Assembly (NCBI GenBank): GCA_964639535.1
Contig: CAZXDV010000001.1
Coordinates: 1 to 40,925, forward strand
Length of the DNA: 40,925 nt
Source of the DNA: an uncultured Enterobacteriaceae bacterium
Lineage (GTDB): Bacteria; Pseudomonadota; Gammaproteobacteria; Eutrophobiales; Eutrophobiaceae
Reading direction: 5' to 3'
Shown here one piece after another: positions 6,751 to 31,184 of the stretch (the first letter of the stretch is position 1; every line of letters starts with the position of its first letter). The position numbers were made by a program, and so were the translations under genes. Under the pieces are notes generated by a model. It was not told the DNA's origin, ran no database searches, and saw nothing but the letters and a program-made list of their open reading frames with translations.

Positions 6751-7287
6751 ATGGGATTAAGAGCGTTTTTCAAGCGGATGCTTCCAGAGCATCATGAGTT
6801 CCAGCAACACCGCAAGCTCGGATTCCTGGGCGATATCCTGCATGACCCAAACATATTTCACCTGAATCGCCATTCAGCCGCCGGCGGAATTGCCCTCGGC
6901 CTGTTTTTTTCGTTTATGCCCATCCCCGGGCAAACCCTGCTTGCCGGCCTGGCCGCCATTTATTTCAGGGTGAACTTGCCACTGGCAATGCTGTTTGTGT
7001 TTGTCTCAAACCCCGTCACCATTCCCCCGTTGTTTTACCTGGCTTACAGAACCGGTGCGTTCATGTTGCAGGAAACCCCGGTGGAGCTGGATTTCGAGTT
7101 TTCCGTGGATTGGCTTGGCGAGGTTATTTATGACATCTGGGATGCGCTACTGCTTGGCTGCTTTACGCTGGGCTCCGTGGCCGCTCTGGTGTCCTATTTT
7201 ACCGTGAGGATGTTGTGGCGAATGGCAATCATTCGCAAGTGGGAAGAAAGAAAGGAAAAGAATATGGCCAGGTCGGGTGAAAACTAG
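6751..7287 (+). CDS. DUF2062 family membrane protein
   Basis: 178 aa. The pattern HDPNIFHLNRHSAAGGIALGLFFSFMPIPGQ with 3-4 TMs is the DUF2062 signature as I recall it. Confidence 0.7.
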   Translation: MGLRAFFKRMLPEHHEFQQHRKLGFLGDILHDPNIFHLNRHSAAGGIALGLFFSFMPIPGQTLLAGLAAIYFRVNLPLAMLFVFVSNPVTIPPLFYLAYRTGAFMLQETPVELDFEFSVDWLGEVIYDIWDALLLGCFTLGSVAALVSYFTVRMLWRMAIIRKWEERKEKNMARSGEN

Positions 7288-7299
7288 GGCCCGGTTCAC

Positions 7300-7983
7300 T
7301 CACTGTTTTTCAAGCTTACCATCACGCAGGTCAAATACCGCATCCATCCTGTTCGCCAGGTTGGCATTGTGGGTCACCATCAGCAAGCTGACCTTGAACT
7401 CGGTATTCAATTCCAGCATGACCTCAAACACCTTTTGTGCTGTTTGTTCATCCAGGTTTCCCGTTGGTTCATCAGCCAGGATGCATTCCGGGCGGGTTAC
7501 CATCGCCCTGGCTATCGCAGCACGTTGTCTTTCTCCCCCGGATAACTCGCCTGGCTTATGTTGAAGCCGCTCCTGCAGCCCCACTTTTTCAAGTAAGCGG
7601 GTTGCCTCCTGCATCGCTGTGGTGGCGCTCTCGCCCCGGATCAACAACGGCAATGCAACATTTTCCAGGGCGGTAAATTCCGGCAGCAGGTGGTGAAACT
7701 GGTAAATAAACCCCAGCTTGTTGTTTCGCAGTTCGCTTTTTGCACGTTCATTGAGTACGGAAATGTTTTCCCCTCCTACCTGGATGCGTCCCTCGCTGGG
7801 ATCATCAAGCCCGCCCAGTAAATGCAGCAAGGTACTCTTTCCAGAACCGGAAGAGCCCATAATCGCGATCCTTTCTCCCGCGGCCACGGTGAGGTCAACA
7901 CCCTGCAAAACGTTAACTTTTAAATCACCTTCTTCAAAAGACTTATGCAGGTTGGTACAGCTGAGGGAGGCGACATCACTCAT
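7300..7983 (-). CDS. lolD: Lipoprotein-releasing system ATP-binding protein LolD
   Basis: Walker [10 protein letters not shown], signature LSGGERQR and Walker [12 protein letters not shown] are present. The likely start is ATG 7983 (MSDVASL...), which overlaps the upstream permease gene by 8 nt. The longer track ORF to 8070 is an artefactual extension. Confidence 0.9.
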
Positions 7984-10031: not shown

Positions 10032-10610
10032 TCACGCAGCCCTGAGATAAACCCTTCCATCCTTGCTTTCAAACTCGGGCACTATCCTCGTCTCACTGGA
10101 GATACCACTAATGCCCGCTACCACGACAAGGTCAAACGCACAGCCCGTCGTGGATAACACGAGCATGACTCGCCAGAGTTCACCCTCAAGGGTAAACGAA
10201 AAAATACCAAGCAATGGCGTCAGCACCAGCGCAGGCGCCAGCAAAAAAACAAGGTATCCAGCGATGGACATGTCCTGCCGGCAGGCGCAGTTTATGGCCA
10301 GGCTGGATTTGTCCACGCTGAAGCTGATATTGCAAAACCGCACCCCGACAAGCAGTGCCCCGAGTATGTGCAGGATCTCGTGAACAACGATGAGCGTGAT
10401 AAATCCGAGGCAGTAGGCCACCAGGCCGATAGCGTGCAAGGCCTGAAAGAACCCGAAGACACCGTAGTGAAGTATTCCCCACGCCAGGTACAGCGATGCA
10501 GGCAAGGTTAGAATAATCCAGTAAAGCCGGTTAAGGCAGGCTGCGTCCTGTTTCAGTTCAATTAATCCATCCATATCCTTTTGCCCGGTTTTTAGAGTTG
10601 GCACCTGCAC
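10032..10610 (-). CDS. Polytopic membrane protein with HExxH motif (DUF3267 / putative zincin-like); candidate microcin immunity or self-protection protein
   Basis: 192-aa ORF immediately downstream of the microcin precursor and co-directional with it. It has 4-5 hydrophobic segments, with HEILH embedded at a TM boundary (LIVVHEILHILGALLVG). The start is uncertain (GTG 10610 or ATG 10574) and neither has a clean SD. Confidence 0.6.
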   Translation of the reverse strand: MQVPTLKTGQKDMDGLIELKQDAACLNRLYWIILTLPASLYLAWGILHYGVFGFFQALHAIGLVAYCLGFITLIVVHEILHILGALLVGVRFCNISFSVDKSSLAINCACRQDMSIAGYLVFLLAPALVLTPLLGIFSFTLEGELWRVMLVLSTTGCAFDLVVVAGISGISSETRIVPEFESKDGRVYLRAA

Positions 10611-10668
10611 CAGGCATTAAAACCTGCTGCAGGTACCAGCGATTACCTGAAACCCGGTCTATCCTTGC

Positions 10669-10902
10669 TCAGGGAGTGCGATATCTGAGCTTGTTATATC
10701 CCTGGTAACCAAAGGTTCCAATCGCGTAGCCAACGCCAAAGGCGCTACCCAGGTAACCCAGGCCTGTAACCAGGCGCCCGGCTGCAGCGATATTTGTGGG
10801 ACTGAAAATACCACCTGCTCCGGTACCAAGGGATATTCCACCCGAGATATTTTCCAGTGTTGTTACATCCAGTTCTACTACATCAGCTTGTTCCAGTATC
10901 AT
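10669..10902 (-). CDS. Class II microcin / bacteriocin precursor with double-glycine leader
   Basis: 77 aa from ATG 10902, with AAGGAGAG SD 8 nt upstream. Leader MILEQADVVELDVTTLENISGG has hydrophobic residues at -4, -7, -12 and -15 and GG at -2/-1, which is the C39 peptidase consensus. The 55-aa core has 13 Gly, no Cys, no acidic residues and +4 charge (YNKLRYRTP tail). The gene sits next to a C39-ABC exporter and an HlyD protein. Confidence 0.85.
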   Translation of the reverse strand: MILEQADVVELDVTTLENISGGISLGTGAGGIFSPTNIAAAGRLVTGLGYLGSAFGVGYAIGTFGYQGYNKLRYRTP

Positions 10903-10946
10903 CACGATTTCTCTCCTTGAAAATGTGTAATGGTCGTGCAGGAATA

Positions 10947-10975
10947 ATTATCCTGTAGCGCATCAGCTTTGTCTT
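10947..10975 (-). promoter_or_regulatory. Putative sigma70-type promoter of the microcin precursor gene (-35 AAGACA, 17-nt spacer, -10 GATAAT), overlapped by a CAGGA-N7-TCCTG inverted repeat
   Basis: Read on the minus strand, GATAAT corresponds to 10947-10952 and AAGACA to 10970-10975. The inverted repeat at 10939-10955 overlaps the -10 element. This is sequence inspection only. Confidence 0.3.
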
Positions 10976-11427
10976 TGAGGATTCATGTCATACTTTCGGT
11001 GCTTTCCCGCCATGCTGCGCTTGTAGACCGAAAAACTAACGCCAGACCATTTTCTAAACGATTTGTAGAAATGCGATATATCGGAAAGACCCAGCAAGTG
11101 AGTCAGCATGGCGCCACAGCGGATACCCTGCTCCATGTAGGCATAGCAGCGCTGTTCCCTTTCCCTTGTCAGTAGCTGGTGAAATCCTGTCCCCTCGCGC
11201 CTGAGTTTCCTCGACAGGGTTCTTGAGCTCATGCATAAATGCCTGGCGACATTGACCAGCTGCAAGCCGGCAAGATCGTCCCTGCTTCGCAGGAAGCTTT
11301 CTACTTTTTCCGAGGTGGTGGATTCGGACCGGGCAAGCAGTTTGCGAATACTATCGAGTAAGTAGTGCAGGTCATTTCTTTCCAGCCCGCTTGATTTAAC
11401 CAGGTCTAGGATTTCGTTCCTGTCCAT
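10963..11427 (-). CDS. Small AraC/XylS-family transcriptional regulator (DNA-binding domain plus about 55-aa N-terminal extension)
   Basis: 154 aa with two HTH units (VNVARHLCMSSRTLSRKLRREG; LLGLSDISHFYKSFRKWSGVSFSVYKRS). The ATG at 11427 overlaps the ABC exporter stop by 22 nt. Confidence 0.85.
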   Translation of the reverse strand: MDRNEILDLVKSSGLERNDLHYLLDSIRKLLARSESTTSEKVESFLRSRDDLAGLQLVNVARHLCMSSRTLSRKLRREGTGFHQLLTREREQRCYAYMEQGIRCGAMLTHLLGLSDISHFYKSFRKWSGVSFSVYKRSMAGKHRKYDMNPQRQS

Positions 11428-13535
11428 GAACCAGGCCCTCCGGGTTTAAGTTGTGCGTTCTCCAGTCTCAGTATTCGATCCGCGAACTGAGTCCCGGGTG
11501 GCCTGTGTGCGATGCTTATTCTCGTCATCTCCAGGCTGGACAGGGACTCATATAACTTATCCTCCGTGCCGGCATCAAGATGGGCTGTACCTTCATCGAT
11601 AAATAACACCGATGGTTCCCTGTATATTGCACGGGCCAGGATGATCCGTTGTTTTTGTCCGGCGGAGAGCGCAGCCCCCAGGTCTCCCAGCTGGCTTTCA
11701 TATCCCATGGGCATCTGCTGTACCAGTTCATCGATGATCGCCAGTCGTGCTGCCCTTCGTACTCGTTCCATGTCAAGGTGATCGGAAAACTGGGCGATGT
11801 TCTCGGCAATAGAACCCTGGAAAAGCGTATCTTCCTGCATCACTACGCCAATCTGCCTGCGATACCTGGTTAGACCATAGTTAAAAATACTGGCACCACC
11901 GAAACAGACCTGGCCACTGTCCGCTGGCTGAAGGCCGGGACTGATTTTCAGTAAAGTTGTCTTGCCTGAACCTGAAGCCCCGGTGATGACAACTGACTCC
12001 CCGTTTTTTATGCAGATATCAAGTTTATGCAGAAGCGGTGTCACGCTCGATCCATAGCGAAAACTGACATCGTGTAGTGTCAGGTCTGCCCCCGCTTTTT
12101 CTGGCCCTGTTGAAACTATTGCTGAACGATTCTCAGGGGTATGCGTAGTGATGTCCGCAACCCTGGAAAGGTGGAGATCCAGTAAGCGATATTCCAGGTA
12201 CTTGTCGATAAAACCAACGGCATTTTCCGTGAAGTGGCGCTTGTAAGCCATGAATGCAAATATCATCCCTACAGTAAACTCACCTGCCATTGCCATCTTT
12301 ATGCACAGGTATACAAGCAATACGTGTTCTGTCGTAGCAATTAGCCCATTGATACTTTCAAACCAGATATTACATCGCTGACTCCTCGCACGTGCATTAA
12401 CAACATCTGTATAACGGTGCTGCCACAGAACCTGCCTGTGAGATTCTCCTGCAAGTGATTTTATGCTTGATATTCCTCTCAAGGTTTCAATAAAAACCGA
12501 GTTTTCCCTGGCCAGGCTTTGAACCACCTCCTGCTGAGCGTGATAATAAGGCCGATAGAAGATCGTTCGCAGAACGAGATAGGATAGCCAGCATGCAATA
12601 ACAATGAGCGTTAGTATGGGACTGTATATAAACATCATTACCAGGGTGCTCAAGGTCATAAGACCATCAATGAATGCCGCGATCACCCCCTCGGAGAGCA
12701 TTGCAAGTGGCGGTTCAATCGAATTAAAGCGGGAAATGATGTCGCCCGTGTGTCTTTTTTCGAAAAAAGACAGGGGCAGAGATATTAAGTGCCTGAATAT
12801 ATTGCAGGCCACCCGGTAACCCAGCATGCTTGAAAAATAAAGGATGATGTAAGACCGTAGTGCCTGCACCAGGAACTGGATCAATCCAAGACCGGCAAAG
12901 CCCAGTGCCAGCACCAGCAAAAACTCCCTGTCAAACCTGAGCAGTGCTTCATCAACGGCTAATTGCAGGTAAAAGGGACTGGCCAGCAACAATAATTGCA
13001 GGACTAAAGAAAGCATCAACACCTGCAGCAGGGTAAAAGCAGTACCGGGAAAGTTTCCGCAGAGCTCCATTAAACTCAGCCTGTTTCTTTCTTCTTTACG
13101 TTGAAATTCCGGGCTCGGTCGTAATTCCAGCACCACCCCGGTAAAGTGCTCGGAAAACTCTTCACGCTGCACGGTTCTCTCTCCGCTGGCCGGGTCCAGC
13201 AGTGAATATCTTTTGCCCCTGATACCTTGCAGGACAACAAAGTGATTGAAGTCCCAGTGAATGATTGCTGGCAGTTCCACCTTTGACAGTGCCGTCAACG
13301 ACACGCTTAAAGGCCGCGAAGAAAGCTCCAGCCTGTCTGCAACATCAACCAGCCCTTTCAACGTTAATACACCGGAGCCCGTTGCGTAACTGCCCGCAAG
13401 AGTGGCAATATCAATTTTATGGCCATAATACCCTGACACCATTGCAAGGCAGGCCAGTCCACATTCAGAGATTTCATTTTGCAATACAAGGGGAACTTTT
13501 TTGACCCCAAGGATGTTTAGCGGGCTACCATTCAT
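11406..13535 (-). CDS. Peptidase C39 domain-containing bacteriocin/microcin ABC exporter (CvaB-like)
   Basis: The N-terminal C39 domain has a catalytic Cys in QNEISECGLACLAMV and His in IIHWDFNHFVVL, a block closely parallel to E. coli CvaB. It also has six-TM ABC_membrane, Walker A GASGSGKTT, signature LSAGQKQR and Walker B VLFIDEGTAHLD. ATG 13535 forms an ATGA overlap with the HlyD stop. The track start at 13574 is an alternative. Confidence 0.92.
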   Translation of the reverse strand: MNGSPLNILGVKKVPLVLQNEISECGLACLAMVSGYYGHKIDIATLAGSYATGSGVLTLKGLVDVADRLELSSRPLSVSLTALSKVELPAIIHWDFNHFVVLQGIRGKRYSLLDPASGERTVQREEFSEHFTGVVLELRPSPEFQRKEERNRLSLMELCGNFPGTAFTLLQVLMLSLVLQLLLLASPFYLQLAVDEALLRFDREFLLVLALGFAGLGLIQFLVQALRSYIILYFSSMLGYRVACNIFRHLISLPLSFFEKRHTGDIISRFNSIEPPLAMLSEGVIAAFIDGLMTLSTLVMMFIYSPILTLIVIACWLSYLVLRTIFYRPYYHAQQEVVQSLARENSVFIETLRGISSIKSLAGESHRQVLWQHRYTDVVNARARSQRCNIWFESINGLIATTEHVLLVYLCIKMAMAGEFTVGMIFAFMAYKRHFTENAVGFIDKYLEYRLLDLHLSRVADITTHTPENRSAIVSTGPEKAGADLTLHDVSFRYGSSVTPLLHKLDICIKNGESVVITGASGSGKTTLLKISPGLQPADSGQVCFGGASIFNYGLTRYRRQIGVVMQEDTLFQGSIAENIAQFSDHLDMERVRRAARLAIIDELVQQMPMGYESQLGDLGAALSAGQKQRIILARAIYREPSVLFIDEGTAHLDAGTEDKLYESLSSLEMTRISIAHRPPGTQFADRILRLENAQLKPGGPGSWTGTKS

Positions 13536-14770
13536 GAGCGTCGCCCTATGGAGTAAAGGGGGGACATTAACCATTGCATGAAACTACGCCGTTCCAGGAT
13601 GATGTTTCCTGTCAGGGTCATCCCGGTTTGTAGTTTTATGTATTTTGAATGGGCGTTTACATGCTGCGAAGAGAGTCTTGCCCTGACTACGTAGACGGGT
13701 TCACCTATGCCGGGAGCCAGGGGTAACTCTCCCGGTTGAAAAATACCCGCGCTTATCCTGTTAATCCTGGCAGGATAGGAACCATAGAGCCTGTAAGGAA
13801 ATGCGTCGTACTGCAGACGCACTTCCTGCCCCAGGTTTACGAAACCCACCGCCCGGCTGGGCACGAAAAGCTCTGCAACAAGTTCATTTTGCTGAGGTGA
13901 GATGGACATCAGTACTTCTGCAGCTGTAACAGAGTGTCCTTTACCGGGGTGCTTAATTGCAATGATCTCACCGTCCACGGGAGACAGGATGGAAGTAGCA
14001 CTGCGGCTATCCAGCTCCGCGCGATGACTTTCTAACCTGGATTTTTTTTCACGCAGCTGCGCCAGCCGCTCAGCACTGCGTATCGCCAGTTTCCTGCGAT
14101 GACTTTGCAAGCTACCCAGTTTGCTCTTGCTGAGGATACGCTGCTTGTCGGAAAGTGATTTCCGTGCTAACTCGCGTAACCAGCCCTGCTCTTCTTCCTG
14201 GAGTTTTGTATCACTTATGAAGCCCTGTTTATTAAGGCTTAACTTCTTTTTGTAGTTCTCTTCCAGGGATGCCAATAATCGTTGCTCATGCACCGCGTGA
14301 GCCTCGAGCGCCTCCAGTTCCATCCCGAGATCTTTAATTTCCTGCTCTACCTGCCTGGACTCGTATTCAAATTGCCTCTTTTCAAGCTCTACCTGCCTGC
14401 CCACCTCCATTTCCTGGGCCAGCAGTGACTGCAACATCTTTGTATTGGCCGATTCGCCCTTGCTGTTTGCCAGGTGGGATTGTACCAGCGCGAGCACCTG
14501 TCCCTTTTTAACTCGTTCTCCCTGCACAACTGCAAGTGATGCGAGTGTGCCGGTCAGGCTGCTACGGATCTTGATGACACCGCTTTCGGGAACCACATGC
14601 CCCCTGACCATTTCGCTGCGGGCGTAACTTCCCATGACCAGCAGCGCAACAATGATCGCGAAAATTGTGGTGAGTAAATAACCAAATAAATGGAGAGCCA
14701 CGGGCTGAGGAAAAAACACTCGGCCCTGCAATCCATGCTTTTTGGCTGATATCGCTTCCTTGCGAAACAT
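13532..14770 (-). CDS. HlyD-family membrane fusion protein of the microcin exporter (CvaA-like)
   Basis: 412 aa. The N-terminus MFRKEAISAKKHGLQGRV.. followed by a single TM parallels CvaA (MFRQDALENRK..WQGR). It has a long coiled-coil segment, then a beta-barrel/lipoyl-like region. An AAGGA SD lies 8 nt upstream of the ATG. Confidence 0.9.
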   Translation of the reverse strand: MFRKEAISAKKHGLQGRVFFPQPVALHLFGYLLTTIFAIIVALLVMGSYARSEMVRGHVVPESGVIKIRSSLTGTLASLAVVQGERVKKGQVLALVQSHLANSKGESANTKMLQSLLAQEMEVGRQVELEKRQFEYESRQVEQEIKDLGMELEALEAHAVHEQRLLASLEENYKKKLSLNKQGFISDTKLQEEEQGWLRELARKSLSDKQRILSKSKLGSLQSHRRKLAIRSAERLAQLREKKSRLESHRAELDSRSATSILSPVDGEIIAIKHPGKGHSVTAAEVLMSISPQQNELVAELFVPSRAVGFVNLGQEVRLQYDAFPYRLYGSYPARINRISAGIFQPGELPLAPGIGEPVYVVRARLSSQHVNAHSKYIKLQTGMTLTGNIILERRSFMQWLMSPLYSIGRRS

Positions 14771-15025
14771 CAGGCTCGTCCTTGAATTGTGGAGTGATTA
14801 TGCTAGCACATTATCCTTTCGCCAGAAAAGCTGCCATGGGTAACAGGTCTTTTTTGAATGCCATGAAAGGAGCCAAGGTCGAGGAAAGGAGTTTCTTTAG
14901 GAGGAGGCCTTCAGCCGAACACCAAGAAACCCGCTTGGTCCAGGTGTGTAACTCTCCCGTCCCCTGGCTTAACTCCTTTCATGACACTCAAAAAATAATG
15001 CACTGCGCATTCAATTATAGCAGTT

Positions 15026-17944
15026 CTAGCGAGCCTGGCCGTGTGAATTTTCCTGGTAATCTTCAAGTGGCACACAGGCACAGAATAACTGCTTGTCCCC
15101 CCTGGCATTATCGATCCTGCCCACCGGGGGCCAGTACTTGTCATCCCTTATGTTGTCCATGGGGTAGAACGCTTCACGTTTCGTATAGGGCTTTGACCAC
15201 GAATCTTCCAGTAGCAGTCGATGCGTGTGAGGTGCATTGGTCAGCAGGTTGTTAACCGGGTCTGCCCTGCCTTCCTGCACTTCCCTGATTTCATTCCTGA
15301 TAGATATCATCGCATCACAAAAACGATCAAGCTCACGCCTGTTTTCGCTCTCGGTTGGCTCGATCATCAGCGTATCGGCAACTGGAAAAGACATCGTGGG
15401 CGCATGGAAACCGTAGTCAATGAGACGCTTGGCAACATCATCCACGCTTATTCCACAGGATTCCTTTATATCTCTCAGGTCAATAATGCATTCGTGTGCC
15501 ACCATGTCGTTTTTACCCGTGTAGAGCACGGGATAATGTGCCGAGAGTCGCCGGGCGATGTAATTTGCACTGAGTATCGCAACCATCGTTGCCCGGCGCA
15601 GGCCGTGCGCACCCATCATGGCTATATAGGCCCAGGAAATACTGAGAATGCTGGCTGAGCCCCACGGAGCGGAAGCTATGGTGCCTATGGTACCGTCCTT
15701 TCCCGCTGCCGGGTTGACCCCTTCCACCAGCGGATGGTCAGGTAAATATGGCGCAAGATGCATTTTAACGCCGATTGGCCCCATACCGGGCCCACCACCA
15801 CCGTGCGGAATACTGAAAGTCTTGTGCAGGTTTATGTGCATTACGTCCGCACCAATTTCCGCCGGGCGGCTGATACCAACCAGGGCGTTCATGTTCGCAC
15901 CATCCATGTAAACCTGTCCGCCATGCTCATGAACAACTTCGCATATCTCGCAAATAGCTTCCTCGTAAACACCATGGGTGGAGGGATAAGTGATCATCAG
16001 GGCTGATAGTGATACCGCGTGTTTCTCGGCCTTTGTGCGGAGATCGGCCAGGTCGACGTTGCCATTTTCGTCGCAGGCAATGATCACCACCTTCATGCCG
16101 GCCATGACTGCACTGGCAGGGTTGGTCCCATGGGCCGAGGCGGGAATAAGGCATATATTACGATGCCCTTCTGCGTTCACTTCCTGGAACTTCCTGATCA
16201 CCAGCAGCCCGGCATACTCTCCCTGCGAACCGGCGTTAGGTTGCAGTGAAAAAGCCGAAAACCCGGTCAGGTCACACAGCATATCCTCAAGTTCCTCGAA
16301 CATCTGCTGGTAACCCTGGCACTGCTCCAGTGGAGCAAAGGGATGCATCGAGCTGAATTCCCGGTAAGAAAGGGCCTGTAGCTCCGTCGCTGCATTTAAT
16401 TTCATGGTACAGGAGCCAAGTGGAATCATGGCACGATCAAGAGCGATATCCCTGCGTGCCAGCCAACGCATGTAACGCATCATTTCTGTTTCACTGTGGT
16501 AAAGCTCAAATACCGGGTGAGTAAGGATCTCGTCCTGGCGTAGCATGGCTTGCGGAATATTTTCTTCTACCAGCTCATCCAGCTGTTCTACATCGGGAAG
16601 TCCGTCAGCACCCGCGGAGAATGCAGCCCAGACCTTGCGTATTTCTTTCACGGTCGTGGTTTCATCGAGGCTGATACCGAGCGTATCCGCATCGACCACG
16701 CGCAGGTTAATACGAGATTCCCGCGCCTTTGCAGCGATACGCCGGGCACGGCTTGTGGCGGTAACCGTAAGCGTGTCAAAAAAGCACTGGTGTACCAGCT
16801 GAAATCCCATCTGCTGAAGACCAAGGCCAAGAACCTGGGCCAGGCGATGGACTCGCCCGGCAATCAATCCCAGGCCCCGTGGCCCGTGATATATTGCATA
16901 GAAACCCGCAATCACCGCCAGCAGCACCTGGGACGTACAGATATTACTGGTCGCCTTTTCACGGCGTATATGCTGCTCCCTGGTCTGCAGCGCCATGCGC
17001 AGGGCAACTTCGCCATTGTTGTCCGCTGATACACCGATTACGCGTCCCGGCATTGAGCGAACATACTTTTCCCGGGTTGCAAAAAATGCCGCATGCGGGC
17101 CGCCATATCCCATGGAAACGCCAAAACGTTGACTACTGCCAACAACGATGTCAGCGCCCATTTGTCCCGGCGACTTCAGCAGGACAAGTGCGAGGATATC
17201 TGCCGCTACAGTGACTATGCTGCCAGTCTCTTTTGCCGCGGCTATTATCCCGTCAAGATTCCTGACAGAACCACTACTCCCTGGATATTGCAGGAGAACA
17301 CCAAACACATCATCGAGATTGTACTGCCCAAGAGGGTCTCCCACGATGACCTCGTAGCCAAAATATTTAGCCCGGGTTTTAACCACCGCGATGGTTTGGG
17401 GATGACAGTCATGGTCGACGAAAAAGCAGTTACCGTGATTCTTGCCCACACGCCTGGACATGCTCATGGCCTCGGCCGCTGCTGTTCCCTCGTCAAGTAA
17501 CGAAGCATTGGCGATCTCCATGCCGGTGAGATCAATGACCATTTGTTGAAAATTAAGCAGGGCTTCAAGTCGACCCTGGCTGATTTCCGCCTGGTATGGC
17601 GTATATGCCGTGTACCAGGCGGGATTCTCCAGTACGTTTCGCTTGATAACGGCGGGCATGATGGTGCCGTAATAGCCCATGCCGATCATGGAGGTGTATA
17701 CACGGTTCCTCTCGCGCATTTTACGCAGGCGAGTAATTACCTCTCGTTCGCTAATGGTGTGGGTGAGTGACAGGTTCTTTTTTGCAAGGATGCTGCCGGG
17801 CACTGCCCTGTCGATGATGGCGTCCAGCGAGGCGAGCTCCAGATCATCAACCATGCTGCCAATTTGATGACGATCCGGCCCAATATGCCGACGAATAAAG
17901 TCCCCTCGCATTTCCAACTCTGCGAGTGTGTGTTTTCTCTTCAC
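15026..17944 (-). CDS. gcvP: Glycine dehydrogenase (decarboxylating), glycine cleavage P protein
   Basis: A single-chain P protein of about 970 aa. The N-terminus ..[19 protein letters not shown] parallels E. coli TLSQLENSGAFIERHIGP, and the PLP region [16 protein letters not shown] is present. The track ORF starts at TTG 17989. GTG 17944 is preceded by GGAGAGG and is my preferred start, but the start remains uncertain. Confidence 0.93.
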
Positions 17945-27404: not shown

Positions 27405-28073
27405 TCAGGCAGCTTCGGGCAGTACCTGTGTACTTTCCCCGGACACAACCATGGTCGTTGGCGATTCTACCGGTGTCACTGTCACTTCGCGCCGTATCCC
27501 CGAATCCAGGATATCCCTGAGCGCACCCACTTCCCGAATGTCGGGATCAAGCCAGCGCTCAAAATCTTCCTGTTCAAGCATCAATGGATAACTAAGCTCG
27601 TGAATATGGCGAAAATTATCCTGCCCTGGCAGGGTAATCACGGTAAAGGAATAAACCGTTTCATCCGCAAACTGCCAGCGCCGGTATAGGCCGGCAAAGG
27701 CGATGGCACTGTGCGCCGGACCCACGGCATAGCAGACCTTGTCCTTCCACTCAAAGAAGCAGCTGGCCGGGATGATGGCACGCTGGGTTTTTACTGCCGA
27801 TGACCACAGGCGACTGCTTTCAAGACGCGTGGACCTGGCATTAAATGTCTTCCACTTCGGGTTCGGACGGTATCCGGGTCCCTTTTTTTTCGGCTCGATC
27901 AGTAGTGACCAGGTCGCTTCATGCATGTGACGCTCACCGGCGTCTTCAAATACGATGGCAGTACTGCTGCCGGGCGCAATATTGTTCTTCGCCTGGGGGA
28001 AAACAGCCAGTCCCAGCGTCTTCATCAGCTCCCTGACAAAGGGGCTGTCACTTACGTTCATACGTCCACACAT
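27405..28073 (-). CDS. SOS response-associated peptidase (SRAP / YedK family, abasic-site DNA-protein crosslinking)
   Basis: From ATG 28073 the protein begins MCGR, the obligatory catalytic Cys2 of SRAP. It continues with typical SRAP blocks (NARSE-like FNARSTRL, P..CFFEW). A GGGAGAA SD lies 7 nt upstream. The gene is divergent from lexA. Confidence 0.88.
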   Translation of the reverse strand: MCGRMNVSDSPFVRELMKTLGLAVFPQAKNNIAPGSSTAIVFEDAGERHMHEATWSLLIEPKKKGPGYRPNPKWKTFNARSTRLESSRLWSSAVKTQRAIIPASCFFEWKDKVCYAVGPAHSAIAFAGLYRRWQFADETVYSFTVITLPGQDNFRHIHELSYPLMLEQEDFERWLDPDIREVGALRDILDSGIRREVTVTPVESPTTMVVSGESTQVLPEAA

Positions 28074-28152
28074 GCCTGAATTCTCCCACCACGGGCACAT
28101 GGATAAAAGATTTTTACAATTCCTGCTTGATCATTGAAAAAATACCACTATA

Positions 28153-28183
28153 CTGCTCATAAAAGCACTGTTTATATTAACAC
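28153..28183 (+). promoter_or_regulatory. Two abutting SOS-box-like 16-mers (CTG-N10-CAC) in the SRAP/lexA divergent control region
   Basis: taCTGCTCATAAAAGCAC (28153-28168) and CTGTTTATATTAACAC (28168-28183) share one base. Each has an AT-rich centre and one mismatch from the gammaproteobacterial CTG-N10-CAG consensus. The second ends 1 nt before the lexA ATG. Confidence 0.45.
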
Positions 28184-28184
28184 C

Positions 28185-28790
28185 ATGATTACATTAACAG
28201 CCAGACAACTCGAAATCCTTGATTTTATTAGAGAAAGCATCAGGGATAACAACATGCCTCCCACCGTAGCGGAGATTGCACAGGCCATGAATCTCAGTTC
28301 TACCAACGGTGTGCGTGGTCATTTACAGGCCCTGGCCCGTAAAGGCGCCATAGAACTCATACCCAATGCATCAAGGGGTATACGCCTGCTGCAAATTGAC
28401 ATGTTTGAGCAGGGCCTTCCCCTTGTTGGCCGGGTTGCGGCAGGGCAGCCCCTGCTGGCCGAGGAGAATATTGAAGATTACAAGCAGGTAGACCCGGCGC
28501 TTTTTCAGCCTGCAGCCGACTACCTGCTACGTGTACAGGGAGAAAGTATGCGTGATGTAGGCATCCTTGATGGTGATTTGCTGGCGGTGCATCGCCGGCC
28601 CACCGCCGAGGATGGAGAAATCGTAGTAGCACGACTGGAGGATGAAGTCACTGTCAAACGCCTTAACCGGCAAGGCCACATGGTCTACCTGGAAGCGGAA
28701 AATCCCGATTTCCGGGCTATAGAGGTCAACCTGAAAGAAAGCACACTGGACATAGAAGGTATCGCGGTAGGGGTCATACGCCCCCTCTAA
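28185..28790 (+). CDS. lexA: LexA repressor
   Basis: From ATG 28185, MITLTARQLEILDFIRESI..MPPTVAEIAQ aligns with E. coli MKALTARQQEVFDLIRDHI..MPPTRAEIAQ. The Ala-Gly cleavage region (VAAGQP) and the catalytic Ser (GESM) and Lys (VKRL) are present. The track start at TTG 28134 is an artefactual extension. Confidence 0.95.
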   Translation: MITLTARQLEILDFIRESIRDNNMPPTVAEIAQAMNLSSTNGVRGHLQALARKGAIELIPNASRGIRLLQIDMFEQGLPLVGRVAAGQPLLAEENIEDYKQVDPALFQPAADYLLRVQGESMRDVGILDGDLLAVHRRPTAEDGEIVVARLEDEVTVKRLNRQGHMVYLEAENPDFRAIEVNLKESTLDIEGIAVGVIRPL

Positions 28791-28883
28791 ACAGTGTTAA
28801 CAAAATAAGCTCCATATGCCGGGTATATCTTCTCGGGCATAGTATTGGACGCCCTGCTGACGAGAATAAGCTGGAGAAATAGA

Positions 28884-29510
28884 ATGATAAATAGCCAATT
28901 ACAAGATCTTATAATCAACAATCCGCACGTCTGGCTTGGTGACGAAATCACCGAGTCAAAATCAGGTGGCATTCCCACTGGCTACCCGGCGCTGGATGCC
29001 ATCCTTCCGGAAGGCGGCTGGCCGAGGAATGCGATGATGGAAATGCTCACACCCCAGTGGGGCTTTGGTGAGTTACAACTACTCCTGCCGCTGATGCGTT
29101 CCATCACCAGCGAAAAACGCTGGGTGATGCTGGTGGCTCCACCTTATATTCCCTATGCTCCTGCCCTGGCGAATGCTGGTGTCGACATTAACTATATTAT
29201 CAATATCGATCCTGAAACCACCTGCAAGGATGCCATGTGGTCCGTGGAAAAGGCCCTGCAATCCGAAAGCTGTGGTCTCGTGCTGGCCTGGCTGGACTCC
29301 CTGCCAAATGCTGTTGTCAGGCGTCTACAATTGGCTGCCAGCGAAGGACAAACTTCCGGCGTATTATTTCGCCACCGGGAAGCAAAAAACTCACCTGCTT
29401 CACTGCAACTGCGCCTGAAACATACCGACCAGGGTCTTCATGCCCATGTCATCAAGGCCCGAGGTGCAAACCGTTATCGTTCTGCCACGATAAAGCTGCC
29501 TTTTCACTAG
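28884..29510 (+). CDS. imuA: ImuA (SulA/RecA-like translesion synthesis-associated protein)
   Basis: About 208 aa from ATG 28884, with a GGAG SD 7 nt upstream. It has the pattern GIPTGYPALDAILPEGGWPRNAMMEML...GELQLLLP typical of ImuA/SulA-like proteins, and it is positioned between lexA and imuB. Confidence 0.85.
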   Translation: MINSQLQDLIINNPHVWLGDEITESKSGGIPTGYPALDAILPEGGWPRNAMMEMLTPQWGFGELQLLLPLMRSITSEKRWVMLVAPPYIPYAPALANAGVDINYIINIDPETTCKDAMWSVEKALQSESCGLVLAWLDSLPNAVVRRLQLAASEGQTSGVLFRHREAKNSPASLQLRLKHTDQGLHAHVIKARGANRYRSATIKLPFH

Positions 29511-29647
29511 GCCACAGCAACAATCATTAAACGGTAAATTACAGGCAAGATTCACCACAGCGTCACTCCGGACTCCCCGCACCCCACCCCATACCCCGAC
29601 CGGAGTGCCGCTGATTTTTAAGCCTGGCTTTACCGGGTGATCTTGTT

Positions 29648-31183
29648 ATGCGTACCCTGCTTGATCGTTCACCCTGGTATGAGCATTTTGATGAACAGGC
29701 TCACCCACAGGATGAAAAATCTGCTTTAGCCAGGACTGATCTATGGCTGGCTGTCGATCTTCCCGAGCTGGATCTTGAATGCTCAGGGCATGACTACCAG
29801 GGCTCGGCATTTGTTGTCCTTGAGGAAGTCGCTGGCATGCACTATGTCCACAATGCATCGGAATTAGCCCGGCAGAAAGGGATTTCCCGGGGAATGACAA
29901 TCAATGCCGCGCTTGCGGTTTGCGAGACACTGAAGAGCGCTAATATTGACCCCGTCGCGCAGCAAGACAAGCTGGAGGAACTGGTCGCAGATTCCATGCA
30001 GTTGAGTTCACGGGTTAGCATTGCACCCCCTACGTCTTTTCTACTGGAAGTTGCCGGCAGTATCAGGTACTTCGGCTCGCTGGAGATGATTCAACAAAAA
30101 CTGGCGCAGAGCCTTAAAAAAAAACTGCAATCCACATTTAACATGGTTGTCTCCCCTGTTCCTGCCGCCAGCCTGTTACTGGCCAGGTCAGGTTATAAAA
30201 ACATAATACATGGGCTTGATGAATTACGTTCAGTGTCAGGTGCATTACCGGTTAATGCCTTGCCCATTGATGATAAATCTCTCTCGCAACTGGATAAAAT
30301 TGGTGTGCGTGTACTGAGGGATCTCTGGCGCTTGCCTGTCAGTGAGCTGGCTAGACGTTTTGATGCAGATTTTGTCAGTTACCTGGAGACCCTTCTTGGC
30401 AGGAAACAGGAGCTATTATCTCTTCACTATCCTGCGCCCCGTTTTAACAGGCGGATTTCTTTTACGCGGGACATGAGACAAAACCACGGCTTGCTACCTC
30501 ACATTGATAGCCTGCTGGACAAGCTGGTTGTTTTTCTCAGGCACTACGACCTTTATACAAATCATTTTTTGATCTACCTGGAACACAGGCAGCGTGATAC
30601 GACTGCCATGAATTTTTTCCTGAGACAGCCTTCGCGGGACAAGCATCATTTCCTGGGGCTGGTTGAAACTGATCTTCAACAACGTCAACTCCCCGGGCCT
30701 GTGATCGGCCTTGAACTCCTGGCCGAGGAGTTTCATGAGTTTCATAGTAAAACACGTGAATTATTCAGTCACGATCCTGGGAGCAGTGATGATGATGAAG
30801 ATATCCAGGGCCTGCTGGATCAGCTTCGAGTTAGACTGGGCCGGGAGAAGATTTCACACCTGTCCTGCTGTGCCGATCATCGTCCTGAATATGCCGGTTT
30901 ACTTTACCGACACTCCCCTGGTAGCAGCACCGCAGGCCTGAAGAATCGTCCGCTCTGGTTATTACCCGAACCTCACCCGTTAAGGCAGGGAATAAACCAG
31001 CTTTACTATAAAGGGCCTGTCCATATCTGCTCGGGTCCGGAACGTATAGAAACAGGCTGGTGGGATGGACACGATATACGGCGCGATTATTACACTGCTA
31101 TAGATGAACTCGCTGGTGGGTTATGGATTTATCGCGATCTGAAGTCAGAAAACTGCTGGTACCTGCATGGCCTGTTTGGCTGA
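29648..31183 (+). CDS. imuB: ImuB (Y-family DNA polymerase-like, catalytically inactive adaptor)
   Basis: 511 aa. LWLAVDLPELDLE near the N-terminus is the typical ImuB opening and the body is Y-family-like. It lies immediately upstream of dnaE2. Confidence 0.85.
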   Translation: MRTLLDRSPWYEHFDEQAHPQDEKSALARTDLWLAVDLPELDLECSGHDYQGSAFVVLEEVAGMHYVHNASELARQKGISRGMTINAALAVCETLKSANIDPVAQQDKLEELVADSMQLSSRVSIAPPTSFLLEVAGSIRYFGSLEMIQQKLAQSLKKKLQSTFNMVVSPVPAASLLLARSGYKNIIHGLDELRSVSGALPVNALPIDDKSLSQLDKIGVRVLRDLWRLPVSELARRFDADFVSYLETLLGRKQELLSLHYPAPRFNRRISFTRDMRQNHGLLPHIDSLLDKLVVFLRHYDLYTNHFLIYLEHRQRDTTAMNFFLRQPSRDKHHFLGLVETDLQQRQLPGPVIGLELLAEEFHEFHSKTRELFSHDPGSSDDDEDIQGLLDQLRVRLGREKISHLSCCADHRPEYAGLLYRHSPGSSTAGLKNRPLWLLPEPHPLRQGINQLYYKGPVHICSGPERIETGWWDGHDIRRDYYTAIDELAGGLWIYRDLKSENCWYLHGLFG

Positions 31184-31184
31184 G

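What the first reader, a model, noticed from the sequence alone, without database searches (positions are those of the whole stretch)
10032..14770. Colicin V-type (class II) microcin production/export island inside a housekeeping neighbourhood
Five co-directional minus-strand genes form a compact module:
- a CvaA-like HlyD fusion protein;
- a CvaB-like C39-peptidase ABC exporter (ATGA overlap with the HlyD gene);
- a small AraC regulator overlapping the exporter stop by 22 nt;
- a 77-aa double-glycine-leader precursor with its own strong SD;
- a 192-aa HExxH membrane protein.
The flanks (tsaB on one side, gcvP-H-T on the other) are core genes, so this looks like an inserted accessory cassette. 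I see no modification enzymes (no lanthipeptide synthetase, radical SAM or siderophore-loading genes). There is no TolC-like outer-membrane gene and no classical small immunity ORF in the window. Class II microcins are characterised mainly in Enterobacteriaceae. The remaining synteny here is Pseudomonas-like or marine-gammaproteobacterial, and I do not recognise the core peptide as any named microcin.
Basis: partly seen in the sequence, partly recalled or inferred. Interest (0 to 1): 0.82.

Follow-up and report, generated by a model that had tools for sequence, protein, structure and literature searches.

The report
Microcin-like export cassette with intramembrane protease
An uncultured gammaproteobacterium carries an old chromosomal five-gene cassette that should cleave and export a previously undescribed 55-residue glycine-rich peptide, and this peptide family is always encoded next to a membrane-embedded zinc protease rather than the small immunity protein usual for microcins.

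Summary
The five minus-strand genes are real. They are an HlyD-type adaptor, a C39-peptidase ABC exporter with an intact catalytic triad, a short AraC-type regulator, a double-glycine-leader precursor, and a DUF3267 HExxH membrane protein. The export machinery is MccV-like: the exporter is 36% identical to CvaB and the adaptor 23% identical to CvaA. The core peptide matches no named microcin and no Pfam or NCBIfam family. It defines a small family of 18 clusters among 5.8 billion proteins.

- **Not a recent insertion.** Composition equals the flanks. The cassette sits at the same gcvP/tsaB junction in a fully syntenic contig whose TsaB is only 55% identical.
- **The HExxH protein is the constant partner.** A DUF3267 gene follows the precursor in 10 of 10 evaluable loci. 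HExxH, Pro114 and Asp148 are invariant within the 12-sequence subfamily. A 2026 preprint shows that DUF3267 proteins are S2P-clan intramembrane proteases and that one of them, TmcP, matures a Gram-positive bacteriocin.

Best reading: a class-IIa-microcin-like system in which DUF3267 supplies proteolytic self-protection, or else a second processing step. It is a new variant of a known kind. Toxicity, cleavage and immunity are untested.

The parts
13532..14770 (-). HlyD/CvaA-type membrane fusion (periplasmic adaptor) protein, 412 aa
   Evidence: Pfam HlyD_3 4e-15 and HlyD_D23 2e-9. TIGR01843, E=5e-46, below its curated cut-off. Full-length 23% identity to E. coli CvaA, E=2e-26.
11406..13574 (-). 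Peptidase-containing ABC exporter (PCAT), 722 aa. An alternative start at ATG 13535 gives the ATGA overlap with hlyD.
   Evidence: Pfam C39, ABC_membrane and ABC_tran. 36% identity to CvaB over 680 aa without gaps. Cys37/His110/Asp126 align with the CvaB catalytic triad Cys32/His105/Asp121 (triad as given in PMC10233263).
10963..11427 (-). Short AraC/XylS-type regulator, 154 aa. It has the HTH domain only and overlaps the PCAT 3' end by 22 nt.
   Evidence: Pfam HTH_18 2e-10 at residues 61-137, with no ligand-binding domain. Conserved in this position in L001-L005 and L012/L021. Absent in L018 and L013.
10947..10975 (-). Sigma-70-like promoter match upstream of the precursor gene (weak evidence)
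   Evidence: Consensus scan, 9 of 12 matches. The number of such sites in the region is not above the shuffle expectation.
10837..10905 (-). Double-glycine leader of the precursor (V/MMILEQADVVELDVTTLENISGG)
   Evidence: Read from the sequence. Hydrophobic residues sit at -4, -7, -12 and -15, and the cleavage motif is GG. G(-2) is invariant and L(-12) nearly invariant across 20 family members.
10669..10836 (-). Core peptide of 55 aa (ISLGTGAGG...NKLRYRTP) plus the stop codon. It is 5.57 kDa, pI about 10, 24% Gly and has no Cys.
   Evidence: Composition. No Pfam, NCBIfam or PDB match. The family comprises 18 clusters. G31, R43, G58 and G62 are invariant.
10599..10638 (-). Strong RNA hairpin (16 pairs, one bulge) between the precursor stop and the DUF3267 start
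   Evidence: The 10570-10675 region folds with z=-3.5. A hairpin occupies the same position in L001, L021, L004 and L003 although the sequences differ; region-level z is -1.6 for L001 and -2.7 to -3.0 for the other three.
10032..10574 (-). DUF3267 (PF11667) four-helix intramembrane zinc metalloprotease, 180 aa. The longest ORF extends to the GTG at 10610. HEILH is encoded at 10368-10382 and Asp148 at 10131-10133.
   Evidence: Pfam 45.9 bits against a cut-off of 27.1. AF2 model pLDDT 96.7, pTM 0.89, four long helices and two beta-hairpins. H65, E66, H69, P114, C145 and D148 are invariant in the subfamily down to 24% identity. The gene lies immediately downstream of the precursor in 10 of 10 evaluable loci.
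14810..14837 (-). Sigma-70-like promoter match upstream of hlyD (weak evidence)
   Evidence: Consensus scan, 9 of 12 matches, not above chance for the region.
14850..14995 (-). Conserved structured intergenic element between gcvP and hlyD. Whether it belongs to the cassette is uncertain.
   Evidence: Fold of 14771-15030 gives z=-4.65. A 28-nt core is identical in the window, L001 and the divergent L021. Ten of 49 predicted pairs show compensatory changes. No credible Rfam family matches.

Best explanation
This is a chromosomal, vertically inherited, class-IIa-microcin-like peptide production and export operon.

- **Synthesis and export.** The 77/78-aa precursor is made in the cytoplasm. The C39 domain of the ABC exporter recognises its double-glycine leader and cuts after Gly-Gly. 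The exporter, the HlyD adaptor and an outer-membrane factor encoded elsewhere then expel the 55-residue core. The core is cationic, glycine- and tyrosine-rich and cysteine-free (calculated mass 5574 Da).
- **Regulation.** The small AraC-type protein is translationally coupled to the exporter and probably drives the precursor promoter. A hairpin after the precursor gene probably limits read-through into the last gene.
- **The last gene.** It encodes a four-helix S2P-clan DUF3267 zinc protease whose active site is inferred to lie in the cytoplasmic leaflet of the inner membrane. I propose it is the cognate self-protection factor, occupying the slot of the immunity gene and destroying or trimming peptide that enters the producer's own inner membrane.

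Shown here: gene content, catalytic residues, family-wide gene linkage and conservation of the chromosomal site. Inferred: export route, cleavage site, antibacterial activity, regulation, and the immunity role of DUF3267. I put immunity at about 0.45 and a maturation role at about 0.3.
For: - **Domains and catalytic residues.** The exporter aligns with CvaB at 36% identity without gaps, and the Cys/His/Asp triad is conserved (PMC10233263). The adaptor aligns with CvaA over its full length.
- **Leader and core.** The leader has the canonical GG motif and hydrophobic spacing, conserved in 20 family members. The core size, charge and glycine content are typical of class IIa microcins (review table).
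- **Linkage to DUF3267.** A DUF3267 gene follows the precursor in 10 of 10 evaluable loci, including loci with no adjacent exporter (L013) or at another chromosomal site (L018).
- **L018 arrangement.** In L018 a second, unrelated GG-peptide is followed by its own 105-aa hydrophobic, probably membrane, protein (my reading of its sequence), while the family peptide is followed by DUF3267. This is a peptide-then-protector arrangement.
- **Active-site conservation.** HExxH, Pro114 and Asp148 are invariant down to 24% identity. The AF2 model is confident and has four helices.
- **Function of the family.** DUF3267 is experimentally an S2P-clan intramembrane protease acting on a bacteriocin precursor (PMC13252029).
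- **Precedent.** Microcin S immunity protein McsI belongs to a protease family, the CAAX/CPBP family (PMC3316575).
- **Hairpin.** A hairpin lies between the precursor and DUF3267 genes in five loci.
Against: - No experiment shows export, cleavage, toxicity or immunity.
- The only characterised DUF3267 protein, TmcP, is a maturation protease, not an immunity protein.
- A cytoplasm-facing active site (inferred from the positive-inside rule) is awkward for neutralising a peptide that arrives from the periplasm.
- No TolC-type gene is in the window.
- Long vertical persistence at a housekeeping site is unusual for bacteriocin loci, which tend to vary between strains.
- Foldseek similarity to solved S2P structures is not significant. 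The top hit is SpoIVFB, with E=1.5 and TM 0.35.
- The promoter matches are at chance level.
Confidence: 0.5

Rival explanations
1. DUF3267 is a biosynthetic protease, as TmcP is in TMcin systems. The glycine-rich precursor associates with the inner membrane. DUF3267 makes a second or alternative cut, for example in the variable stretch between the GG site and the conserved G-I/L-F-S block. The exporter then extracts and secretes the product. Immunity, if any exists, lies elsewhere.
For: - TmcP, the only characterised DUF3267 protein, removes the leader of a membrane-embedded bacteriocin precursor and needs the HExxH His and the distal Asp (PMC13252029).
- The same residues are invariant here.
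- The inferred topology puts the active site in the cytoplasmic leaflet, where a newly made precursor would arrive.
- Peptide and protease are strictly linked even without an adjacent exporter.
- The segment between the GG site and the conserved block varies in length, as a propeptide would.
Against: - The leader is a canonical, conserved double-glycine leader and the exporter's C39 triad is intact, so leader removal is already accounted for.
- The core has no predicted transmembrane helix. The best 19-mer gives about +4.2 kcal/mol on an approximate Hessa scale, and the Kyte-Doolittle maximum is 1.27.
- There is no TmcE-like escort gene and no room for one, since the intergenic gaps are 57, 94 and 17 nt.
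- There are no conserved cysteines.
Confidence: 0.28
2. The exported peptide is not a weapon. It is a lineage-specific signalling or envelope-associated peptide. The AraC-type regulator and DUF3267 would form part of its control circuit, with DUF3267 turning over or processing the signal or another membrane substrate.
For: - The cassette is ancient and syntenic at a housekeeping junction in lineages with only 55% TsaB identity, and it diverges roughly in step with its neighbours. This is atypical for bacteriocin loci.
- A dedicated transcription factor is part of the operon in this clade.
- In Gram-positive bacteria, exporters of this type also export double-glycine pheromones (PMC6363468 abstract).
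Against: - At 55 residues, cationic and glycine-rich, the core looks like class II bacteriocins and microcins rather than short pheromones.
- No sensor kinase or receptor gene is in the cassette.
- The core diverges fast between lineages (37% identity against 50% for the exporter), as expected for an antagonistic peptide.
- In L018 the peptide sits beside another GG-peptide that has its own downstream hydrophobic, probably membrane, protein, a typical bacteriocin-cluster layout.
Confidence: 0.15
3. One reading: a recently acquired, horizontally transferred microcin island inserted between core genes.
For: The cassette encodes non-housekeeping functions and sits between tsaB and gcvP. The peptide-DUF3267 module also occurs at an unrelated site in another genome, L018, so it has moved at some time.
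Against: - GC content, GC3, codon usage (JSD 0.016 against 0.008-0.022 for flanking blocks) and tetranucleotide distance all fall within the flank range.
- There are no flanking direct repeats, tRNA or integrase.
- The same junction is occupied in L001 and in the divergent, fully syntenic L021.
- Cassette proteins diverge roughly in parallel with their neighbours.
Confidence: 0.05

Closest known systems
Microcin V (colicin V) system of E. coli: cvaA-cvaB-cvaC-cvi plus TolC
   Same: Both have an HlyD-type adaptor and a C39-ABC exporter with the Cys/His/Asp triad. The exporter is 36% identical to CvaB and the adaptor 23% identical to CvaA. Both have a double-glycine precursor without modification enzymes, a protective-gene slot next to the structural gene, and an outer-membrane factor encoded elsewhere (PMC10233263).
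   Different: The core shows no similarity to CvaC beyond the leader and has no cysteines or disulfide. In place of the 78-aa Cvi there is a 180-aa DUF3267 protease. The operon includes an AraC-type regulator. The locus is chromosomal and vertically inherited rather than plasmid-borne. The gene order is colinear in one operon rather than two divergent operons.
Microcin S system of E. coli G3/10 (mcsS-mcsI-mcsA-mcsB)
   Same: It is a class IIa microcin cluster whose experimentally proven immunity gene, next to the structural gene, encodes a large (216 aa) protein of a metalloprotease family, the CAAX/CPBP family (PMC3316575). This is the precedent for a protease-family protein acting as microcin immunity.
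   Different: The protease family differs: PF02517 CPBP there, PF11667 DUF3267 here, and no CPBP hit was found. The peptides are unrelated. The MccS locus is plasmid-borne.
TMcin biosynthetic cluster of Staphylococcus aureus and other Gram-positives (tmcA, tmcP, tmcE, tmcBC, tmcD)
   Same: It is a bacteriocin locus with a DUF3267 (PF11667) four-helix S2P-clan intramembrane protease, an HExxH motif and a distal Asp, encoded with the precursor and an ABC exporter (PMC13252029).
   Different: TMcins are reported only in Bacillota and Actinomycetota (PMC12328743). The TMcin precursor has a true transmembrane helix, two universally conserved cysteines and a non-GG 45-residue leader. Its exporter lacks a C39 domain, and it needs the TmcE escort. 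Here there are no cysteines, no predicted transmembrane helix, a GG leader, a C39 exporter with an HlyD adaptor, and no escort gene.
Gram-positive class II bacteriocin loci with Abi/CPBP immunity proteins (Kjos et al. 2010, J Bacteriol 192:2068; cited in PMC8538875)
   Same: A double-glycine peptide is exported by a C39 exporter, and a polytopic membrane metalloprotease-family protein is encoded directly after the structural gene as the immunity determinant. From my own knowledge of Kjos et al., the putative active-site motifs are needed for that immunity.
   Different: The protease family differs. The envelope differs: there is no outer membrane and no HlyD/TolC requirement. The peptide families are unrelated.

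Membership tests
Class II microcin system (MccV-type type I secretion) | Pre-peptide with an N-terminal double-glycine (GG/GA) signal sequence | tested here: met
   The leader ends ...LENISGG, with hydrophobic residues at -4, -7, -12 and -15. It is conserved in 20 family members.
Class II microcin system (MccV-type type I secretion) | C39 peptidase-containing ABC transporter with a Cys/His/Asp catalytic triad | tested here: met
   Pfam C39 8e-35. Cys37/His110/Asp126 align with CvaB Cys32/His105/Asp121.
Class II microcin system (MccV-type type I secretion) | Membrane fusion protein of the HlyD/CvaA type encoded next to the exporter | tested here: met
   HlyD_3 and TIGR01843 hits, the latter below its curated cut-off. 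Full-length alignment to CvaA, E=2e-26.
Class II microcin system (MccV-type type I secretion) | Dedicated immunity protein encoded adjacent to the structural gene (typically a small inner-membrane protein, 51-216 aa) | tested here: inconclusive
   A 180-aa four-helix membrane protein is adjacent in every locus. It belongs to a protease family, and its immunity function cannot be tested in silico.
Class II microcin system (MccV-type type I secretion) | TolC-type outer-membrane factor available in the genome | not testable with these tools
   None is present in the 40.9-kb window. The rest of the genome is not available.
Class II microcin system (MccV-type type I secretion) | Mature peptide of about 5-10 kDa with antibacterial activity | tested here: inconclusive
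   The size criterion is met, at 5574 Da calculated. Activity cannot be tested with these tools.
Class II microcin system (MccV-type type I secretion) | Core homologous to a named microcin (V, L, N, PDI, S, H47, M, E492...) | tested here: not met
   There is no similarity to CvaC beyond the leader. tblastn of the precursor against 72,556 plasmids, which include ColV plasmids and should include plasmids of other class IIa microcins, found nothing at E<=10. There are no Pfam or NCBIfam hits. The chromosomal class IIb microcins (H47, M, E492) were not compared by sequence.
Class IIb (siderophore-linked) microcins | C-terminal Gly/Ser-rich motif and siderophore-loading genes | tested here: not met
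   The C-terminus is ...NKLRYRTP. The cassette has no additional genes.
DUF3267 / PF11667, S2P-clan intramembrane zinc metalloproteases | Pfam model match above the gathering score | tested here: met
   45.9 bits against a cut-off of 27.1, E=8e-12.
DUF3267 / PF11667, S2P-clan intramembrane zinc metalloproteases | HExxH motif plus distal Asp and Pro in transmembrane helices | tested here: met
   H65, E66, H69 and P114 are invariant and D148 is at least 90% conserved in 81 sequences. All are invariant in the 12-member subfamily.
DUF3267 / PF11667, S2P-clan intramembrane zinc metalloproteases | Four-transmembrane-helix core fold resembling S2P | tested here: inconclusive
   The AF2 model (pLDDT 96.7) has four long helices and two beta-hairpins. 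The top Foldseek PDB hit is the S2P SpoIVFB, but E=1.5 and TM=0.35, which is not significant.
TMcin biosynthetic gene cluster | Precursor with a transmembrane helix and two universally conserved cysteines forming a disulfide | tested here: not met
   No core in the 20 family members contains cysteine. No 19-mer is predicted to insert into the membrane.
TMcin biosynthetic gene cluster | TmcE escort protein and TmcBC-type (non-C39) ABC exporter | tested here: not met
   The exporter has a C39 domain and pairs with HlyD. No 2-TMH small ORF is present, and there is no intergenic room for one.
CPBP/Abi (CAAX protease) bacteriocin immunity proteins | PF02517 domain | tested here: not met
   The Pfam scan of the 192-aa ORF gave only PF11667.

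The most novel reading that the evidence does not exclude
A previously undescribed family of double-glycine-leader peptides in Gram-negative bacteria is obligately paired with an S2P-clan DUF3267 intramembrane protease. If so, one of two things holds.

- Intramembrane proteolysis is a new immunity mechanism for microcin-type peptides.
- Alternatively, these peptides undergo two-protease maturation (C39 plus DUF3267) at the inner membrane. That would be a Gram-negative counterpart of the membrane-embedded TMcin pathway.

Either way, the link between DUF3267 and bacteriocins would extend across the Gram divide.
Probability: 0.4. Interest if true: 0.75.

Novelty: new variant of a known kind. Interest (0 to 1): 0.55.

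Why it matters
- **Function of DUF3267.** DUF3267 proteins (about 3,100 in Pfam) had no known function until a June 2026 preprint tied one to bacteriocin maturation in Staphylococcus. Here the same protease family is genetically locked to an unrelated, exporter-dependent peptide family in Gram-negative bacteria. The bacteriocin connection may therefore be a general property of the family, and this compact five-gene system could be moved into E. coli to test it.
- **Genome mining for microcins.** Immunity or processing genes can be sizeable proteases rather than small ORFs. Microcin-like loci can also be ancient, vertically inherited chromosomal features rather than mobile islands.
- **A new peptide scaffold.** The cysteine-free 55-residue peptide family is available for activity screening.

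Tried and rejected
- **Metagenome scans.** Two scans of metagenome contigs, one with a protein-alignment pattern and one with a degenerate DNA pattern for GIFSP[TA]NIAAAGR, found nothing.
- **Empty-site test.** The single genome-contig scan with TsaB returned only one close relative, which has the same cassette at the same site. An empty site in a sister genome could therefore not be examined.
- **Structure.** The first AF2 run, with a 4-sequence alignment, was unusable (pLDDT 49). A rerun with 81 sequences succeeded. Foldseek against the PDB gave no significant hit.
- **Plasmid searches.** tblastn of the precursor and of DUF3267 against plasmids found no match, so TmcP could not be retrieved for direct comparison.
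- **Other libraries.** The PADLOC defence library, a PDB profile search for the peptide and Rfam for the window and the intergenic hairpin gave nothing credible.
- **Literature supplements.** No supplementary sequence tables of the 2025 microcin survey are held, so I could not check whether this peptide was already listed there.
- **Escort or immunity ORF.** I looked for an additional conserved small escort or immunity ORF downstream of DUF3267. Small ORFs exist in L017, L018 and L019, but they are unrelated to one another and absent from the window clade.
- **Promoters and terminators.** The consensus scan is at chance level overall.
- **Taxonomy.** Cluster names gave no taxonomy beyond 'Gammaproteobacteria bacterium' for the MAG and one 'Planctomycetota' MAG label.

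Full report
**1. Observation**

The region 10032-14770 holds five co-directional minus-strand ORFs, as described.
- A 412-aa HlyD-family adaptor: HlyD_3 4e-15; TIGR01843 5e-46, below its curated cut-off.
- A 722-aa ABC exporter with Peptidase_C39, ABC_membrane and ABC_tran domains.
- A 154-aa protein that contains only an AraC-type HTH_18 domain.
- A 77/78-aa ORF with no family hit.
- A 192-aa ORF that matches PF11667 (DUF3267, 'putative zincin peptidase') at 45.9 bits against a cut-off of 27.1.

The 22-nt AraC/exporter overlap is correct. The 'ATGA' overlap applies to the internal ATG at 13535. The relative L021 has that 4-nt overlap, whereas the longest ORF overlaps hlyD by 43 nt. The HExxH protein most likely starts at ATG 10574, giving 180 aa. 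Its homologues are 176-182 aa, and the upstream GTG is buried in a hairpin.

The flanks are tsaB and gcvP. The rest of the window is housekeeping: lolCD, comEC, exbB, lpxK, kdsB, gcvT, sdaA, asnS, lexA-imuAB-dnaE2 and folP. It contains no TolC, modification enzyme, tRNA, integrase or Rfam hit. A regex scan found no other credible double-glycine ORF.

**2. Export machinery**

I retrieved authentic cvaA, cvaB, cvaC and cvi from an E. coli ColV plasmid.
- The exporter is 36% identical to CvaB over 680 residues without a gap.
- Cys37, His110 and Asp126 align with the CvaB triad Cys32/His105/Asp121 (the triad is as stated in PMC10233263).
- The adaptor aligns end to end with CvaA at 23% identity, E=2e-26.
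- The best plasmid-borne relatives of the exporter are 40-44% identical 'peptidase domain-containing ABC transporters' of Bradyrhizobium, Shewanella, Vibrio, Rhizobium and Pantoea.

The machinery is therefore a generic proteobacterial C39 exporter with an adaptor, working like CvaAB. It is not a close CvaAB orthologue.

**3. The peptide**

The leader (V/M)MILEQADVVELDVTTLENISGG has the GG site and hydrophobic residues at -4, -7, -12 and -15. The 55-residue core has these properties:
- calculated mass 5574 Da;
- pI about 10 and net charge +4;
- 24% glycine;
- no cysteine;
- a Tyr/Arg/Lys-rich C-terminus.

It resembles CvaC only in the leader. It has no Pfam, NCBIfam, PDB or plasmid match.

A single-sequence search of 5.8 billion proteins found four clusters. 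A profile search found 18. An alignment of 20 members shows invariant G(-2), G31, R43, G58 and G62, and a shared core pattern: GTGxGG(I/L/M)F(S/G)xxN..AAxR...G.G......G...G...Y. No core contains cysteine.

No 19-residue window is hydrophobic enough for a conventional transmembrane helix. The Kyte-Doolittle maximum is 1.27, and the best window gives about +4.2 kcal/mol on an approximate Hessa scale recalled from memory.

**4. The constant partner**

Every locus in which the DNA downstream of a family precursor can be read has a DUF3267 gene immediately after it. These are the window, L001, L003, L004/5, L012/L021, L013/14, L015/16, L017, L018 and L019/20, which makes 10 of 10. L002 ends right after the precursor and cannot be scored.

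The pairing holds in three situations beyond the window clade.
- In L013, a 4.6-kb contig, no exporter is nearby.
- In L018, the module sits at a different chromosomal site in a complete 4.37-Mb genome and lacks the AraC gene.
- In L019/20, the contigs come from a marine metagenome project (PRJEB4352).

In L018 the exporter is followed by an unrelated 116-aa GG-peptide with its own 105-aa hydrophobic, probably membrane, protein (my reading of its sequence). Next come the family precursor, which the gene caller missed, and DUF3267.

The DUF3267 subfamily is small. An exhaustive HMM search of 1.84 billion representatives gave 88 hits, only 9 of them at E<=1e-10. Within the subfamily, down to 24% identity, H65, E66, H69, P114, L118, C145, D148 and P166 are invariant. 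Across 81 wider DUF3267 sequences, HExxH and P114 are invariant and D148 is at least 90% conserved.

AlphaFold2 with that alignment gives a confident model (pLDDT 96.7, pTM 0.89). It has four long helices, with HEILH in helix 51-75 and D148 in helix 132-154, and two beta-hairpins. Lys and Arg counts are 2, 3 and 4 in the N-terminus, the central loop and the C-terminus, and zero in the other two loops. This implies an N-in/C-in topology with the active site in the cytoplasmic leaflet (an inference from the positive-inside rule).

Foldseek ranks the S2P protease SpoIVFB first, but the match is not significant (E=1.5, TM 0.35).

**5. What the literature says about DUF3267**

A June 2026 preprint (PMC13252029) reports the following.
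- TmcP of the S. aureus TMcin cluster is a PF11667 protein.
- It resembles the M. jannaschii site-2 protease and belongs to the S2P clan.
- It removes the leader of the membrane-embedded precursor TmcA.
- It needs the HExxH histidine and the distal aspartate.
- It depends on a 2-TMH escort protein, TmcE.

TMcins are reported only in Gram-positive bacteria and have a transmembrane helix and two conserved cysteines (PMC12328743). The preprint does not mention Gram-negative or C39-exporter-linked DUF3267 systems.

Separately, the proven immunity protein of microcin S is a 216-aa CAAX-protease-family protein (PMC3316575). The class II microcin review lists the adjacent immunity gene as a defining component.

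**6. Is it an inserted island?**

It is not a recent insertion.
- GC content (0.49-0.53), GC3, codon usage (pooled JSD 0.016 against 0.008-0.022 for flank blocks of equal size) and tetranucleotide distance (0.0105 against 0.0076-0.0125) all lie within the range of the flanks.
- There are no bounding repeats.
- The related MAG 'Gammaproteobacteria bacterium' CBDEUC01 has gcvTHP, the cassette and tsaB in the same order.
- L021, a 98.6-kb contig whose TsaB is 55% identical, is syntenic from sdaA to ate across about 20 kb and carries the cassette at the same junction.
- Against L001, flanking proteins are 82-97% identical and cassette proteins 80-92%. Against L012/L021, flanks are 48-80% and cassette proteins 37-51%. 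The cassette has diverged roughly in step with its neighbours, somewhat faster.

An ancient acquisition cannot be excluded, because no empty-site outgroup could be retrieved.

**7. Regulatory anatomy (weaker evidence)**

Sigma-70-like matches lie upstream of hlyD (14837-14810) and inside the 3' end of araC upstream of the precursor (10975-10947). Such matches are no more frequent here than in shuffled sequence.

A 16-pair hairpin (10599-10638) lies between the precursor stop and the DUF3267 start. A comparably strong hairpin occupies that position in L001, L021, L004 and L003 although the sequences differ. In L021 and L003 it is followed by a U-run. This fits a structural gene followed by an attenuated downstream gene, as in many bacteriocin operons. 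That comparison rests on my own knowledge.

**8. Mechanism**

The best-supported model has four steps.
- The precursor's leader is recognised and cut at GG by the C39 domain.
- The exporter, the adaptor and an unlinked outer-membrane factor export the 55-mer.
- The AraC-type protein controls expression.
- DUF3267, made at lower level, uses intramembrane proteolysis to protect the producer. It occupies the immunity-gene slot, and no other candidate ORF exists.

I give the immunity role about 0.45 and a TmcP-like maturation role about 0.3. The second is favoured by the precedent and by the cytoplasm-facing active site. It is disfavoured by the intact GG/C39 route, the lack of a transmembrane helix and the absence of an escort gene. 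The remainder goes to a non-antagonistic peptide function, which is prompted by the unusual evolutionary stability of the locus.

**9. Comparison and novelty**

The locus works like a class IIa microcin system and meets the testable membership criteria: GG pre-peptide, catalytic C39 exporter, adaptor, mature size and an adjacent membrane protein. It fails on homology to any named microcin. Activity, immunity and TolC use remain untested.

It is not a TMcin cluster, because four defining features are not met. Class II microcins outside the Enterobacteriaceae are no longer surprising (PMC12219008).

Three things are new:
- the peptide family itself;
- its strict coupling to an S2P-clan DUF3267 protease in Gram-negative bacteria;
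- the ancient, syntenic chromosomal residence of the cassette.

I rate it a new variant of a known kind, with interest 0.55.

Noticed in passing
window 14850-14995 (minus strand), between the gcvP stop (15026) and the hlyD start (14770): A long structured intergenic element. The fold of 14771-15030 gives z=-4.65. Its 28-nt core, GTGTTCGGCTGAAGGCCTCCTCCTAAAG (14895-14922), is identical in the window, L001 and the divergent L021, whose proteins are only about 50% identical. Ten of 49 predicted pairs show compensatory changes. It is single-copy and has no credible Rfam match. It could be a gcvTHP 3'UTR element, a leader for the cassette, or an undescribed sRNA. Only three sequences were available, two of them nearly identical.
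   Followed up: partly
window 10599-10638; also L001:~10264-10305, L021:~10286-10318, L004:~947-988, L003:~1534-1573: A strong hairpin lies between the precursor and DUF3267 genes in all five loci examined. Its position is conserved but its sequence is not. In two loci it is followed by a U-run. It may be a leaky terminator or attenuator that sets the peptide-to-protease ratio.
   Followed up: partly
L018:6815-7165 and 7235-7552 (complete genome CP121313.1): A second, unrelated double-glycine peptide (116 aa, Ala/Gly-rich core) with its own 105-aa hydrophobic, probably membrane, protein lies between the exporter and the family precursor. The family precursor itself (7688-7963) was not called as a gene in the source annotation.
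   Followed up: no
window 10032-10574 (DUF3267 residues C96, C98, C145): C145, in the motif G-C-A-x-D, is invariant in the subfamily, and the C-x-C pair in the first beta-hairpin is conserved in most members. By the inferred topology these cysteines are cytoplasmic or membrane-embedded. They might form an extra metal site near the catalytic Asp.
   Followed up: no
window 28134-34280: A lexA gene is followed by an imuA-like ORF (no Pfam hit), imuB (IMS family) and dnaE2 (a second DNA polymerase III alpha). This is the SOS mutagenesis cassette. A SRAP (YedK-like) gene lies divergently upstream at 27405-28100.
   Followed up: no
whole window against public collections: The window's own genome seems absent from the searched collections apart from fragments. 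The nearest precursor is 92% identical. A 99%-identical DUF3267 protein (P0005) occurs only on a 1.3-kb ENA metagenome contig. The closest assembled genome is an unnamed gammaproteobacterial MAG.
   Followed up: partly
P0103 (precursor homologue), NCBI MFT7459864.1: One family member is annotated as coming from a 'Planctomycetota bacterium' MAG. Either the family reaches beyond the Gammaproteobacteria or that contig is mis-binned.
   Followed up: no
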